Below, in pieces: positions 9,016 through 23,221 of a DNA stretch of 24,961 nucleotides. The position numbers were made by a program, and so were the translations under genes. The DNA comes from a virus. Positions within the stretch are counted from its first letter, which is position 1. Each line of letters opens with the position of its first letter. Where the stretch lies: the UHGV virus genome UHGV-0275691, one strand, 5' to 3'. The notes beneath the pieces are model-generated. The model did no database searches. It had not been told where the DNA came from and saw only the letters and a program-made list of their open reading frames with translations.

Positions 9016-9193
9016 TGTTCATTCCACGGACAAAAACAGAGAAAGGAAACGACAGAGGCCAAAAAGCTCGCTTTCAGCACCTGTCGTTTCCTTTCTTTTC
9101 AGAGGGTATTTTAAATAAAAACATTAAGTTATGACGAAGAAGAACGGAAACGCCTTAAACCGGAAAATTTTCATAAATAGCGAAAACCCGCGA

Positions 9194-9205
9194 GGTCGCC
9201 GCCCC
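9194..9205. other. cos: cosN cohesive-end site (AGGTCGCCGCCC, complement of lambda GGGCGGCGACCT); cosB expected on the Nu1 side at about 9016-9190
   Basis: Exact 12-nt lambda cohesive-end sequence, flanked by sequence resembling lambda left and right ends, directly upstream of Nu1. Confidence 0.85.
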
Positions 9206-9404
9206 GTAACCTGTCGGATCGCCGGAAAGGACCCGCAAAATGATAATAATTATCATCTACATGTCACAACGTGCATCTACGCCATCAAACCACGTCAAAT
9301 AATCAATTATGACGCAGGTATCGTATTAATTGATCTGCATCAACTTAACGTAAAAAAAACTTCAGACAATACAAATCAGCAACACAGAATACGGGACAAC
9401 CTCA

Positions 9405-9637
9405 TGTCAACGAAGAACAGAACCCGCAGAACAACAACCCGCAACATCCGCTTTCCTAACCAAATGATTGAACAAATTAACATCGCTCTTGTTCAAAAAG
9501 GGTCCGGGAATTTCTCAGCCTGGGTCATTGAAGCCTGCCGCCGGAGACTGTGCTCAGAAAAAAGAGTTTCGCCTGAAGCAAACAAAGAAAAGAGTGACAT
9601 TACTGAATTGCTCAGAAAACAGGTTAGACCAGATTGA
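9405..9637 (+). CDS. Small basic protein with a predicted ribbon-helix-helix-like fold (77 aa); cos-proximal ORF that I recall also being present at the lambda right end
   Basis: ORF with N-terminal Arg/Thr-rich stretch followed by a strand-helix-loop-helix pattern (IRFPNQMIEQINIALVQKGSGNFSAWVIEACRRRL); weak RBS; upstream part of the 168-aa track ORF crosses cosN so cannot be coding. Confidence 0.55.
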
Positions 9638-9694: not shown

Positions 9695-10105
9695 ATGGCT
9701 CAGGTTGCCATTTTTAAACAAATATTCGATAAAGTGCGAAATAATTTAAACTATCACTGGTTTTATTCTGAACTAAAACGTCACAATGTCTCACATTACA
9801 TTTACTATTTAGCCACAGAGAATATTCATCTTGTTCTTGAAAACGATAATACGGTTTTAATAAAAGGACAGGGTAAGGTTGTAAATGTAAGATTTTCAAA
9901 AAATAAATGCCTTATAGAAGCCACCTTAAAAGGATTCAAATCAGGAGAGTTATCATTTTACGAATACAGGAAAAATCTTGCTACAGCAGGGGTTTTCAGA
10001 TGGATTACAAATATCCACGAAAACAAAAGGTATTACTATACCTTTGATAATTCATTACTCTTTACTGAGAACATTCAGAACACTACACAAATATTTCCGC
10101 ACTAA
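9695..10105 (+). CDS. DUF1398-like (YbcV/YdfO-family) prophage protein, 136 aa
   Basis: ATG at 9695 with GAAGG RBS 8 nt upstream; translation resembles recalled E. coli YbcV-family proteins and the equivalent lambda right-end ORF; [13 protein letters not shown] motif. Confidence 0.7.
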
Positions 10106-10783
10106 ATCATAACGTCCGGTTTCTTCCGTGCCAGAACCGGACTCGCTGGCATGATGAAATATGTGTACCCGGTAACCCCGGTGTGCATCGTTTTTGATTA
10201 TTCCCGCACACTCGCGCAGAAGGAGTTCCCCGTCGGGCTACGGTCTCTGTTAATACGGGAACACGGCGACGATACAGCGCATGATGTGTCAGGCTTGAAT
10301 ACCTTTATCCTTTAAAAGGGATATCAGTTAAGTTATCCCGTGTAGGGTATAAGCCATTATCAAAGCCACTCTGTAGGGAATGGCTTTTGTGATGGCATCA
10401 CTTACTCTTTACGCTGCTATCCCACTCATCCCGGAATTTTGATGGGTTATTGAAACCTTCTGCTGACATAACAACTCCTTCAATGTTTGGCTGAAATTAG
10501 GATGTCTTTCCATCAGTCCGCCACCACAAAGAATCTTTTTTGCCATAAGGCAGGAGGTTCATCTTTCAGTGGCTGCCGGTGTTATTTCCCCACTTACTGG
10601 CTTGGGTTGTTTCGTGGTACTGCCGTTAACTGGTGGCGCACAGATTTAGTTAAATCCGTTCTCGCCTGAACTATCTTTTACATACCCGGATTGTGGGGAT
10701 GTAAATCACGGTTTCATTATCAAGCCCACCAGTAGATGGGCTTTGTAATGAAGAGTTGTTATGAAAATTGCTCTAAACAAGCA

Positions 10784-11272
10784 TTAATAGCCATCAGAAG
10801 TAATCGCTACAGATTTCAATCCCTCAATGTCATCCTTGGACAGGGCGAACCATTCACCGTGCTTTCTCTTTGCGGCAAATTTGCGATGAAGCATGTTTTC
10901 AGTTTCTCTTCCACCAGGGATCAGGCACTCAAGCTTCAAGCAGTCTGGTCCAGAGTTGCCAAGCGATTTGATGCGTTGTGGAATGTTGGATGAATACCCA
11001 ATTTTGGTTAGCCCAGTTTTCTTCGATGACAAAACGTATACCTGAGGAGGTTCTTTTCTCTGGTCTTCCATTACACGTCTCATTGTTGCCATAAGTCCGC
11101 CGTGCATCAGCATTTCAACAAAGAACGCTGACCGAACACCTGACGACTTAAGCATGCCAGAAAATTCACTTGCCAATTCCATTAACTCTGCGATGTTTTC
11201 AGGAACTTTTTGGCAGTTATCTTCCTTGTATAAGGAAATCATTCTTTGAAGCTTTTCTTCTAATTGGTTCAT
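10784..11272 (-). CDS. T5orf172 (GIY-YIG-like) domain protein with an uncharacterised helical N-terminal domain, 162 aa
   Basis: C-terminal region VYVLSS..GLTKIGYSSNIPQRIKSL...ENMLHRKFAAKRKHGEWFAL fits the T5orf172/GIY-YIG-like motif order (YxL, KIGxS, R, E, GEWF); ATG at 11270-11272; the track start at 11308 is a GTG. Confidence 0.65.
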   Translation of the reverse strand: MNQLEEKLQRMISLYKEDNCQKVPENIAELMELASEFSGMLKSSGVRSAFFVEMLMHGGLMATMRRVMEDQRKEPPQVYVLSSKKTGLTKIGYSSNIPQRIKSLGNSGPDCLKLECLIPGGRETENMLHRKFAAKRKHGEWFALSKDDIEGLKSVAITSDGY

Positions 11273-11421
11273 AGCGTCTTTACCTTTTAGAAAGTGAGCC
11301 TGTCTCACAGAAAAGCCGCCCCGAGATGGTCGCCACCATATACGGCAGTTCTCAGGCTCAACTTTCTGAAAGGCTCGGGTGATGTAATATGCGCGTGAGA
11401 TGCGCTGTGAAATTCAGATGT

Positions 11422-11445
11422 AAAAAAAGCCCCGCATCGCGAGGC
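11422..11445 (-). terminator. Rho-independent terminator downstream of Rz (minus-strand RNA GCCUCGC-GAU-GCGGGGC then U7)
   Basis: 7-bp stem with one G-U pair followed by a seven-residue U tract, 30 nt after the Rz stop. Confidence 0.7.
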
Positions 11446-11477
11446 TCATTAAATGGACTTTGTGATTTGCAAAAAAA

Positions 11478-22984: not shown

Positions 22985-23056
22985 GCGCGGCGTTACCGCA
23001 TACCAATAACGCTTCACTCGAGGCGTTTTTCGTTATGTATAAATAAGGAGCACACC

Positions 23057-23221
23057 ATGCAATATGCCATTGCAGGGTGGCCTGTTGCTGGCTGCCCTTC
23101 CGAATCTTTACTTGAACGAATCACCCGTAAATTACGTGACGGATGGAAACGCCTTATCGACATACTTAATCAGCCAGGAGTCCCAAAAAATGGATCAAAC
23201 ACTTATGGCTATCCAGACTAA
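23057..23221 (+). CDS. cIII: CIII (FtsH inhibitor that stabilises CII), 54 aa
   Basis: Manual translation [54 protein letters not shown] matches lambda CIII; AAGGAG RBS; below the ORF-track cutoff. Confidence 0.92.
   Translation: MQYAIAGWPVAGCPSESLLERITRKLRDGWKRLIDILNQPGVPKNGSNTYGYPD

What the first reader, a model, noticed from the sequence alone, without database searches (positions are those of the whole stretch)
10340..10760. Two homologous hairpin motifs flanking a roughly 375-bp noncoding segment; possible small RNA or small peptide
Two related elements, CATTATCAAAGCCACTCTGTAGGGAATGGCTTTTGTGATGG (about 10350-10392) and CATTATCAAGCCCACCAGTAGATGGGCTTTGTAATGAAG (about 10718-10756), each form an AGCC..GGCT stem-loop followed by TTTGT. 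The interval between them has no convincing protein gene but contains a perfect AGGAGG (10552-10557) followed 11 nt later by a GTG opening a 26-codon hydrophobic frame (10569-10649, MAAGVISPLTGLGCFVVLPLTGGAQI). This could be a small RNA locus or a small membrane peptide inside the cargo insertion; the evidence is weak.
Basis: seen in the sequence. Interest (0 to 1): 0.4.

Follow-up and report, generated by a model that had tools for sequence, protein, structure and literature searches.

The report
Phage late-mRNA hairpins flanking a micro-gene

Summary
Both hairpins exist, at 10352-10397 and 10712-10753. They are the only two copies in the 25-kb window of a family found in HK97, HK022, HK620, Sf6, Stx2 phages and about 2,500 of 5,426 E. 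coli genomes.

Covariation is strong: 17 pairs, 95% paired, 11 pairs changed on both sides. G.U/A.C asymmetry (87 against 15; 63 against 0 in the upper stem) shows the selected structure is on the minus strand, the sense strand of the Q-dependent late transcript.

An internal loop 5'-CA/GA-3' is invariant across six genera. The stop codons of about 11 unrelated upstream genes lie within 3 nt of the hairpin base.

A small-RNA gene has no support: no promoter, no terminator, no covariation, no Rfam family.

The minus-strand ORF 10469-10398 (MSAEGFNNPSKFRDEWDSSVKSK, strong ribosome-binding site) is a real micro-gene. It has homologues in seven genera, and pN/pS is 0.19.

Most likely function of the hairpins is intercistronic mRNA processing or stabilisation, with RNase-III-site-like architecture. 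Their conserved arms also serve as recombination joints between cassettes. The function is inferred, not shown.

The parts
10712..10753 (-). Hairpin H2. Late-sense RNA: 5'-CUUCAUUACAAAGCCCAUCUACUGGUGGGCUUGAUAAUGAAA-3'. It has a 7-bp lower stem, a CA/GA internal loop, a 9-bp upper stem and a UACU loop. It starts 30 nt after the stop codon of the T5orf172/GIY-YIG-like gene.
   Evidence: Model R2 scores 57.0 bits, E = 2e-12. Late-sense fold is -22.2 kcal/mol against -18.5 for the plus strand. Family covariation.
10636..10711 (-). Segment D: a conserved non-coding spacer present in some relatives (HK620, HK106, Sf6) and absent in others (HK022, HK544).
   Evidence: Mosaic mapping.
10501..10635 (-). 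Segment C: a 135-nt non-coding segment, 94-98% identical in 57 distinct variants. In late sense it always lies just upstream of a variable cargo slot. Function unknown; a leader or 5'-UTR role is inferred.
   Evidence: No covariation. No promoter. Weak partial Proteo-phage-1 similarity at 10571-10606.
10475..10481 (-). Ribosome-binding site GAAGGAG, 5 nt upstream of the ATG of the micro-gene.
   Evidence: Read directly from the sequence. Conserved upstream context in 60 or more loci.
10398..10469 (-). Micro-gene ORF23: MSAEGFNNPSKFRDEWDSSVKSK plus stop (TGA at 10400-10398). The stop codon directly abuts hairpin H1.
   Evidence: There are 13 or more peptide variants in 7 genera. In the core, pN/pS is 0.19, and 13 of 14 third codon positions vary against 3 of 14 second positions. 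Not in Pfam or PHROGs.
10352..10397 (-). Hairpin H1. Late-sense RNA: 5'-UGCCAUCACAAAAGCCAUUCCCUACAGAGUGGCUUUGAUAAUGGCU-3'.
   Evidence: Model R2 scores 60.3 bits, E = 3e-13. Family covariation.
10304..10351 (-). Segment A: a conserved sequence that in HK022, HK97, HK620 and Sf6 is the 5' leader of the next late gene (hkbM/DUF2560 or gp74). Here it is cut off and joined to the 3' flank of the convergent DUF1398 gene. It contains the small hairpin GGGAUA..UAUCCC followed by UUUU.
10784..11308 (-). Upstream cassette gene of 174 aa (T5orf172/MUG113 domain; annotated as GIY-YIG nuclease family). H2 follows its 3' end.
10569..10649 (+). It is present but not supported as a gene.

Best explanation
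The window is a lambdoid prophage of E. coli whose Q-dependent late operon runs right to left, on the minus strand. The finding lies in the accessory region between the lysis genes and the terminase genes.

Read in late sense, the order is:
1. the T5orf172/GIY-YIG-like gene,
2. hairpin H2,
3. conserved non-coding segments D and C,
4. a ribosome-binding site and a 23-codon micro-gene (ORF23),
5. hairpin H1, directly abutting the ORF23 stop codon,
6. segment A, a truncated leader,
7. the convergent DUF1398 gene.

H1 and H2 are two copies of one conserved RNA stem-loop that folds in the late mRNA. It has a lower stem of 7-8 bp, an invariant 2x2 internal loop (5'-CA/GA-3'), an upper stem of 9-10 bp and a loop of 3-6 nt. 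In relatives it stands within 0-3 nt of the stop codons of many unrelated accessory genes.

Shown here: it is a structure under selection on the late-sense strand; it marks the 3' ends of accessory gene cassettes; mosaic junctions and deletions fall in its conserved arms; and ORF23 is a protein-coding gene under purifying selection.

Inferred: the hairpin works as an intercistronic mRNA processing or stability element. It would be a 3' protective stem-loop, plausibly an RNase III-type site, because its two-stems-plus-internal-loop architecture resembles the T7 intercistronic signals. Such an element would set the fate of each cassette's message within the long late transcript. The role of the 23-residue peptide is unknown.
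For: Context:
- Gene order and strands come from RefSeq and GenBank annotation of identical or related loci.

Family and structure:
- Three, then four, sequence types (H1-H4) have compensatory changes.
- The late-sense 17-pair model is 94.6-95.1% paired. Eleven pairs change on both sides, 0 of 500 shuffles reach the observed values, and slid registers give 30-49% pairing.

Strand:
- There are 87 G.U cells against 15 A.C cells overall, and 63 against 0 in the upper stem.
- The late-sense fold is more stable in 26 of 33 variants, with means of -21.4 against -17.0 kcal/mol.

Breadth:
- Divergent members occur in Enterobacter, Trabulsiella, a Proteus phage and a Salmonella phage (38-49 bits). All are co-oriented with the late genes, and the CA/GA loop is invariant in 30 of 30.
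- Copy number is 1-2 per phage, always in this region.

Position:
- Stop codons of about 11 unrelated families lie within -3 to +3 nt of the hairpin base.

Recombination joints:
- A single chimeric hairpin in O157 prophages.
- An H1/H3 chimera, L156, and a hybrid ORF23, L204.

ORF23:
-.

Not a terminator and not a small-RNA gene:
-.
Against: - No expression, cleavage or half-life data exist for any copy, so the processing/stability role is inference from architecture and position.
- The stem of about 17-18 bp with a 2x2 loop is at the short end for RNase III substrates.
- G.T pairs are also tolerated in single-stranded DNA, so a DNA-level hairpin on the same strand is not excluded.
- The window's own H1 copy is one of the 6 of 33 variants that fold slightly better on the plus strand (-24.0 against -21.1 kcal/mol).
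- H2 in the window is 30 nt from its stop codon, not abutting it.
- Many family members are close relatives spread by recombination. The shuffle control therefore overstates significance, although the slid-register control and the cross-genus members do not depend on it.
Confidence: 0.55

Rival explanations
1. The hairpins are intrinsic (Rho-independent) transcription terminators. On the plus strand they would stop transcription from the convergent DUF1398/YlcI genes. Alternatively they act in both directions, insulating the cassettes in the lysogen.
For: - H1 on the plus strand is followed by TTTTGTGAT or TTTTGTAAT. In several relatives its upper stem is a perfect 10 bp.
- In DUF1398-carrying prophages it is the first strong hairpin downstream of that gene.
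- Intra-operon terminators of unknown role are noted for P22-like phages (PMC8022706).
Against: - The terminator scan calls neither hairpin on either strand.
- No U-tract follows the full stem in late sense. Type H3 has no U-tract on either strand.
- Selection acts on the lower stem and the internal loop, which a terminator does not need, and on the late-sense strand.
- P22-like phages have the hairpin but no convergent gene.
- Careful annotators marked the post-Rz terminator but not these sites.
Confidence: 0.15
2. The hairpin acts on translation rather than on RNA decay. A stable stem placed right at the stop codon would slow or stall terminating ribosomes, tuning output of the upstream gene (as reported for REP elements close to stop codons), or would uncouple translation of neighbouring cistrons.
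For: - The stop codon lies within 3 nt of the hairpin base for about 11 unrelated gene families, including ORF23 in two divergent lineages: the window and Trabulsiella.
- In other genera the next gene starts 14-20 nt after the hairpin.
Against: - Several copies, including H2 in the window, are 28-65 nt from the nearest stop.
- Close spacing is equally expected for a 3' protective hairpin.
- No direct data exist.
Confidence: 0.15
3. The hairpins are DNA-level recombination sites: cassette ends recognised as folded single-stranded DNA, in the manner of integron attC sites. The region would then be a gene-cassette exchange locus.
For: - The gene-plus-hairpin unit resembles a cassette with the stop codon at the hairpin base.
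- Cargo between and next to the hairpins is variable: Gp49/phrog_322, phrog_5425, ORF23, KilA-N, Rha, T5orf172, or nothing.
- Mosaic junctions coincide with the hairpin edges, and single chimeric hairpins exist where the interval is deleted.
- Structure is conserved while sequence varies.
Against: - No recombinase is linked to the locus in any annotated relative.
- The attC core sites (RYYYAAC/GTTRRRY) are absent.
- Crossovers fall at different places (lower arm, loop, inside ORF23), as expected for homologous or microhomology recombination rather than a fixed crossover point.
- There are only 1-2 copies per genome, always at one locus.
Confidence: 0.07
4. One reading: the interval is an independent small-RNA gene, or encodes the plus-strand 26-residue hydrophobic peptide (10569-10649), bounded by two terminator-like hairpins.
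For: - Segment C is 94-98% conserved in 57 variants.
- AGGAGG and GTG are present in the window.
- Both strands of the 465-nt region fold better than shuffles, z about -3.8.
- There is a weak partial similarity to the Proteo-phage-1 RNA flanks.
Against: - No promoter-like site on either strand.
- No covariation in segment C.
- No Rfam family reaches threshold; both Proteo-phage-1 hairpins are missing.
- The fold z-score is explained by the two hairpins.
- AGGAGG is TGGAGG in 20 of 57 variants. The frame is truncated or extended in relatives, and its common substitutions are mostly non-synonymous.
- No PHROG hit.
Confidence: 0.06

Closest known systems
Intercistronic RNase III processing signals of phage T7 (R1.1 and relatives). 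This comparison rests on my own knowledge, not on a tool result.
   Same: - A hairpin between cistrons of a long phage polycistronic mRNA.
- An upper stem of about 10 bp, an internal loop and a lower stem.
- It would leave a 3' stem-loop on the upstream message.
   Different: - No sequence relation.
- The loop is a small symmetric 2x2 (CA/GA) rather than a larger asymmetric one.
- The total helix is shorter.
- Cleavage has not been tested.
- The hosts are temperate lambdoid phages, and the site is restricted to one accessory region.
REP (repetitive extragenic palindromic) elements of E. coli. This comparison rests on my own knowledge.
   Same: - Imperfect palindromes of about 40 nt just after stop codons.
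- They stabilise the upstream mRNA and, when close to a stop codon, affect translation.
- They are conserved imperfect stems with a mismatch.
   Different: - Different sequence.
- 1-2 copies per phage at one locus, rather than hundreds across a chromosome.
- No associated RAYT transposase.
Morons and their flanking signals in HK97 and HK022 (Juhala et al. 2000, as cited in PMC4104026 and PMC2629481).
   Same: - Accessory genes inserted in a late operon.
- They are delimited by short conserved signals.
- The same phages (HK97, HK022) carry this hairpin.
   Different: - The classical moron has its own promoter and a Rho-independent terminator.
- No promoter is detectable here, and the hairpin lacks a U-tract.
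Integron attC sites.
   Same: - A structured imperfect palindrome at the 3' end of each cassette.
- The stop codon lies at or inside the site.
- Structure is conserved more than sequence.
   Different: - No integrase.
- No R/L core boxes.
- Crossover points are variable.
- Evidence is compatible with an RNA structure.
Rfam RF03044, Proteo-phage-1 RNA.
   Same: An 18-nt stretch in segment C (GAAAUAACACCGGCAGCC, late sense) matches the consensus of the family's 3' tail at 17 of 18 positions, and the 5' flank CCCAAGCCAG also matches.
   Different: - Both hairpins that define the family are absent.
- The score is 19.8 bits against a gathering score of 42.
- True members (76-86 bits) lie in GC-rich phages in a different context.

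Membership tests
Rho-independent terminator | G+C-rich stem-loop followed directly by a U-tract on the transcribed strand | tested here: not met
   The scan calls neither hairpin. In late sense the full stem is followed by UAUACCC or AAACCGUG. Only H1 has a partial U-tract on the plus strand, and type H3 has none.
Any Rfam family (including AgvB, AsxR, Esr41, STnc100) | Score at or above the family's gathering threshold | tested here: not met
   Only Lambda_thermo, elsewhere in the window, passes. In 10000-10900 the best hits are chance-level.
Proteo-phage-1 RNA (RF03044) | Two conserved hairpins between the conserved flanks | tested here: not met
   The alignment deletes both hairpins (28 and 26 model positions against 6 and 6 bases) and scores 19.8 bits against 42. 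True members were fetched for comparison.
RNase III processing signal (T7 type) | An interrupted helix of about two turns with an internal loop | tested here: inconclusive
   Stems of 7-8 bp and 9-10 bp with an invariant 2x2 loop. This is compatible with such a signal but shorter than classical substrates.
RNase III processing signal (T7 type) | Cleavage by RNase III at a defined bond | not testable with these tools
   Needs in vitro cleavage, or end mapping in wild type against an rnc mutant.
Integron attC / cassette recombination site | R''/L''-L'/R' boxes (RYYYAAC...GTTRRRY) and a linked tyrosine recombinase | tested here: not met
   The arms read CAUUACA...GAUAAUG. No recombinase appears in any annotated neighbourhood.
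Protein-coding gene (ORF23, 10469-10398, minus strand) | Start codon with a ribosome-binding site, frame and length conserved in relatives, and an excess of synonymous change | tested here: met
   GAAGGAG lies 5 nt before the ATG. Homologues are 23-30 codons long, each with its own Shine-Dalgarno-like sequence, in 7 genera. pN/pS is 0.19. Third codon positions vary at 13 of 14 core codons, second positions at 3 of 14. All 4 within-type variants are synonymous.
   AGGAGG is altered in 20 of 57 variants. The frame end is not conserved. Common substitutions are mostly non-synonymous. No family hit.
Independent small-RNA gene | Own promoter and terminator, and conserved structure | tested here: not met
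   No promoter-like site. The covariation term for segment C is about 0 on both strands.
Known protein family for ORF23 (Pfam, PHROGs) | A significant profile match | tested here: not met
   No hits at E <= 1 in PHROGs and E <= 0.01 in Pfam. The large protein databases could not be searched because they require queries of at least 40 aa.

The most novel reading that the evidence does not exclude
The hairpin is the recognition element of a so far unknown cassette system in lambdoid phages. Each accessory gene would carry a structured 3' end signal (invariant CA/GA loop, stop codon in its base) that is recognised by a phage or host factor. That factor would either be a recombination activity that swaps gene-plus-hairpin cassettes at this hot spot, or a dedicated RNA-binding or processing factor that sets cassette expression. 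The co-occurring, equally undescribed 23-residue ORF23 peptide may be part of the same module.
Probability: 0.1. Interest if true: 0.8.

Novelty: new variant of a known kind. Interest (0 to 1): 0.5.

Why it matters
The region between the lysis and terminase genes is one of the main places where lambdoid phages, including Stx-converting phages and the model phages HK97, HK022, HK620 and Sf6, carry exchangeable accessory genes. This analysis gives three things.

1. A conserved, strand-specific RNA structure that marks the ends of those genes. It provides a concrete, testable handle on how accessory genes embedded in a 20-kb late transcript are expressed and stabilised. It also shows where mosaic exchange takes place.

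2. A 23-codon gene under clear purifying selection. It is invisible to standard gene callers and absent from Pfam and PHROGs. It adds to the still small set of phage micro-proteins.

3. Both features can be added to phage annotation. A covariance model and a peptide motif (G[FS]xNPxxFRxE[WL]D) are now available.

Tried and rejected
- **Rfam.** Searched at gathering and at permissive thresholds. Nothing was found for the hairpins.
- **Known prophage small RNAs.** AgvB, AsxR and the Pas sRNAs lie at the pR' moron site upstream of the lysis genes, not here.
- **Literature.** P22-like and lambdoid genome papers mention no hairpin in this region. The peptide motif strings return no paper, and neither does 'Proteo-phage-1'.
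- **E. coli K-12.** DLP12 lacks the element and has bor in its place, so K-12 transcriptome data do not apply.
- **Plus-strand model.** It also showed covariation, but it was superseded by the late-sense model once G.U against A.C counts and fold energies were compared.
- **Genome-wide repeat (REP- or MITE-like).** Rejected: there are only 1-2 copies per phage, at one locus, in about 1 Mb of phage DNA.
- **Other short frames in segment C.** MAKKIL... (annotated in phages Emek and Huey), MNLLPYGKK... and the plus-strand MSFHQ... frame have no ribosome-binding site, no family hit and no conserved ends.
- **Segment C as a structured RNA.** No covariation on either strand.
- **Proteo-phage-1 membership.** Rejected, because both defining hairpins are missing.
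- **My first regex scans for hairpins.** They were too loose or buggy and were replaced by covariance-model searches.

Full report
**Where the finding sits**

The window is a lambdoid prophage of E. coli. Bases 10100-10800 are 100% identical to the chromosome of strain 3359. Its annotation gives this order:
- portal, head-tail joining and terminase genes, and nohD, all on the minus strand;
- YlcI/YnfO and DUF1398 genes on the plus strand;
- then, on the minus strand, a GIY-YIG-family gene, Rz, lysozyme and holin.

The Q-dependent late operon therefore runs right to left. The finding (10340-10760) lies in the accessory region between the lysis genes and the terminase genes. No feature is annotated between the DUF1398 gene (stop at 10105) and the GIY-YIG-family gene (stop at 10784).

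**Check of the observation**

- Both quoted strings are present exactly, at 10355-10395 and 10715-10753.
- The inverted repeats span 10353-10396 and 10713-10752.
- AGGAGG (10552-10557) and the 26-codon GTG frame (10569-10649) are as described.
- A covariance model built from relatives finds only these two sites in the 24,961 bases, at E = 3e-13 and 2e-12.

**The region is a mosaic of conserved pieces shared by many phages**

Part of 10330-10770 occurs in 2,506 of 5,426 complete E. coli genomes and in 210 phage records. The phages include HK97, HK022, HK620, Sf6, epsilon34, CUS-3, HK544, HK106 and the Stx2 phages 1717 and 2851.

Pairwise mapping splits the region as follows:

| Piece | Window coordinates | Notes |
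|---|---|---|
| Segment A | 10304-10351 | |
| Hairpin H1 | 10352-10397 | |
| Segment B | 10398-10500 | Only in the window, HK544 and a few others |
| Segment C | 10501-10635 | |
| Segment D | 10636-10711 | Optional |
| Hairpin H2 | 10712-10753 | |

- In HK022, HK620, HK106 and many prophages a third hairpin type, H3, replaces H1. A fourth type, H4, was seen once.
- In about 1 Mb of phage DNA (100 IMG/VR loci) there are only one or two copies per phage. They always have the same orientation and always lie in this region.
- E. coli K-12 DLP12 has bor here and no hairpin.

**The hairpin is a selected structure, on the late-sense strand**

Types H1-H4 differ by compensatory changes. On the plus strand, 13 pairs are 94% paired, and 7 of them change on both sides.

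Several lines point to the minus (late-sense) strand as the one under selection:
- Variants that look like C x A mismatches on the plus strand are U.G pairs on the minus strand.
- The late-sense fold is more stable in 26 of 33 variants, with means of -21.4 against -17.0 kcal/mol.
- The late-sense model has 17 pairs: a lower stem of 7, a 2x2 internal loop, an upper stem of 10, and a loop of 3-6 nt. It is 94.6% paired, 11 pairs change on both sides, 0 of 500 shuffles reach the observed values, and slid registers give 30-48% pairing.
- There are 87 G.U cells against 15 A.C cells, and 63 against 0 in the upper stem.

A late-sense model (R2) then found more divergent members at 38-49 bits. They occur in Enterobacter species, Trabulsiella, Proteus phage Brookers and Salmonella phage MS2 LVA. 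All are co-oriented with the late genes, and all carry further compensatory changes. With these added, pairing is 95.1% and the internal loop 5'-CA/GA-3' is invariant in 30 of 30 sequences.

One caveat applies. The window's own H1 is one of the few copies that fold slightly better on the plus strand (-24.0 against -21.1 kcal/mol).

**Position relative to genes**

In late sense the hairpin follows genes. About 11 unrelated upstream families have their stop codon within -3 to +3 nt of the hairpin base, often as part of the lower stem. They include hkbL-like, Gp49/phrog_322, Rha, DUF2560, ORF23 and several unnamed families.

Other copies are 6-65 nt away from the nearest stop. H2 in the window is 30 nt behind the T5orf172/GIY-YIG-like gene. 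In the more distant genera the next gene starts 14-20 nt after the hairpin.

**Not a terminator, and not a small-RNA gene**

- The terminator scan calls neither hairpin. It does call the canonical terminator behind Rz, at 11447-11427.
- No U-tract follows the full stem in late sense, and H3 has none on either strand.
- No sigma-70-like promoter is found on either strand of 10380-10790, even at relaxed thresholds.
- Segment C is 94-98% identical in 57 distinct variants but shows no covariation on either strand.
- Rfam gives nothing at gathering thresholds.
- The only lead is a 19.8-bit partial match of 10571-10606 (late sense) to the unpaired flanks of Proteo-phage-1, without its two hairpins. 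True members, fetched for comparison, lie in a different context.
- The known prophage small RNAs (AgvB, AsxR, the Pas sRNAs) lie at the pR' moron site, not here.

Across the 57 variants of segment C, the evidence does not support a gene:
- The first A of AGGAGG is T in 20 variants.
- The commonest substitutions in the frame are non-synonymous (Gly to Ser, Thr to Ser, Val to Ala).
- A change at 10627 ends the frame at codon 20 in about half of the variants, and elsewhere the frame runs on.
- No family matches.

**A real micro-gene on the other strand**

Segment B carries a minus-strand ORF at 10469-10398. It encodes MSAEGFNNPSKFRDEWDSSVKSK. GAAGGAG lies 5 nt before the ATG, and the TGA stop abuts H1.

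tblastn and pattern scans found homologues of 23-30 codons, each with its own Shine-Dalgarno-like sequence. They occur in phages and prophages of Escherichia, Salmonella, Enterobacter, Atlantibacter, Trabulsiella, Proteus and Cronobacter. Examples:
- MATQGFDNPSKFRDEWDKQAEGK, placed between hkbM and the small terminase gene in phage APC_JM3.2.
- MAAQGFDNPTQFREELDKSIPKE, placed after Rz in Proteus phage Pm34.

The substitution pattern is that of a coding sequence:
- In the 14-codon core, 13 third positions vary against 3 second positions, and pN/pS is 0.19.
- The four DNA variants within the window's type are all synonymous.
- 333 IMG/VR contigs encode a relative.

The gene is not annotated in RefSeq or in most phage records. 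Where something is annotated (phages Emek and Huey), it is another frame. It matches nothing in Pfam or PHROGs. No paper contains the motif.

**The cargo slot and recombination**

In late sense, segment C is always followed by a variable slot that ends at H1 or H3. The slot can hold:
- nothing (H3 phages),
- ORF23,
- a Gp49-family gene (phrog_322),
- a 57-residue phrog_5425 gene,
- an 80-residue ORF,
- or combinations of these.

The slot before H2 holds KilA-N, Rha or T5orf172-type genes.

Junctions of the mosaic coincide with the hairpin arms:
- O157 and Stx2 prophages have a single hairpin made of the H1 flank and the H2 core, with the whole interval deleted.
- L156 has an H1/H3 chimera broken in the loop.
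- L204 has a hybrid ORF23 that joins the two paralogous copies.

The crossover points differ from case to case. That fits homologous or microhomology recombination better than a site-specific reaction.

**How it most likely works**

Shown here:
- a strand-specific conserved structure in the late transcript at the 3' ends of accessory genes,
- an invariant internal loop,
- stop-codon proximity,
- use of the conserved arms as recombination joints,
- a coding micro-gene.

Inferred: the hairpin is an intercistronic mRNA processing or stability element.
- Its layout (lower stem, small internal loop, upper stem of about 10 bp) resembles the RNase III signals between T7 cistrons. That comparison rests on my own knowledge.
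- A hairpin placed directly after the stop codon leaves no unprotected RNA between the translated region and the 3' barrier.

I put about 0.85 on 'conserved late-sense RNA structure marking cassette ends', about 0.9 on 'ORF23 is a gene', and about 0.4 on the specific processing/stability role.

**Comparison with what is known, and novelty**

The element is not a member of any Rfam family, is not a canonical terminator, and is not an attC site. It works most like intercistronic stem-loops (T7 RNase III sites, REP stabilisers).

I found no description of it in the annotations of HK97, HK022, HK620, Sf6, HK544 or HK106, nor in the papers I could search.

I rate it a new variant of a known kind. 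It comes with a new micro-protein family. Interest is moderate (0.5): both features are solid, widespread and directly testable, but neither is mechanistically surprising yet.

Noticed in passing
window 10571-10606 (minus strand): Weak partial match to Rfam Proteo-phage-1 (19.8 bits against a gathering score of 42). Only the unpaired flanks match: CCCAAGCCAG and GAAAUAACACCGGCAGCC, the latter at 17 of 18 positions of the 3' tail consensus. Both defining hairpins are missing. It is either a relic or chance.
   Followed up: partly
loci L235, L239, L240, L247 (IMG/VR): True Proteo-phage-1 RNAs (76-86 bits) lie just after an intrinsic terminator in GC-rich phages. In L247 three tRNA genes follow about 120 nt downstream. 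This suggests a leader-type position for that orphan motif.
   Followed up: no
window 23044-23102 (+): A full-length match to the lambda cIII thermoregulator element (Rfam Lambda_thermo, 88.5 bits).
   Followed up: no
window 11427-11447 (minus strand): A canonical intrinsic terminator (GAGCCTCGCGATGCGGGGCTT followed by TTTTTAC) lies directly after Rz, inside the late operon and upstream of the T5orf172/GIY-YIG-like gene.
   Followed up: no
locus L015 (IMG/VR), position equivalent to window 10497-10499: A TAA to CAA change fuses a 21-codon frame in segment C with ORF23, giving a 54-codon ORF (MNLLPYGKK...SKFRDEWDSSVKSK). In the window the two frames are in phase and separated only by this stop codon.
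   Followed up: partly
loci L204 and L156 (IMG/VR): L204 carries a hybrid ORF23 (N-terminal half of the window type, C-terminal half of the terminase-proximal type), with everything in between deleted. L156 carries an H1/H3 chimeric hairpin with a broken stem. Both are direct traces of recombination at these short conserved sequences.
   Followed up: partly
window 10106-10303: The unannotated 3' flank of the DUF1398 gene is conserved in about 4,000 of 5,426 E. coli genomes, including K-12 DLP12 downstream of ybcV. It holds a 54-codon plus-strand ORF (10151-10315) of unknown status.
   Followed up: no
Salmonella phage Emek orf53 (L134 1100-1261); phage Huey CDS0065 (L004 728-841): Database annotations in this spacer call the non-conserved MAKKIL... 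frame. The conserved 23-codon ORF next to it is not annotated.
   Followed up: partly
window 9131-9637 (+): A 168-codon ORF carries a DUF3950 match at residues 112-141. RefSeq annotates only the last 77 codons as the YlcI/YnfO family protein.
   Followed up: no
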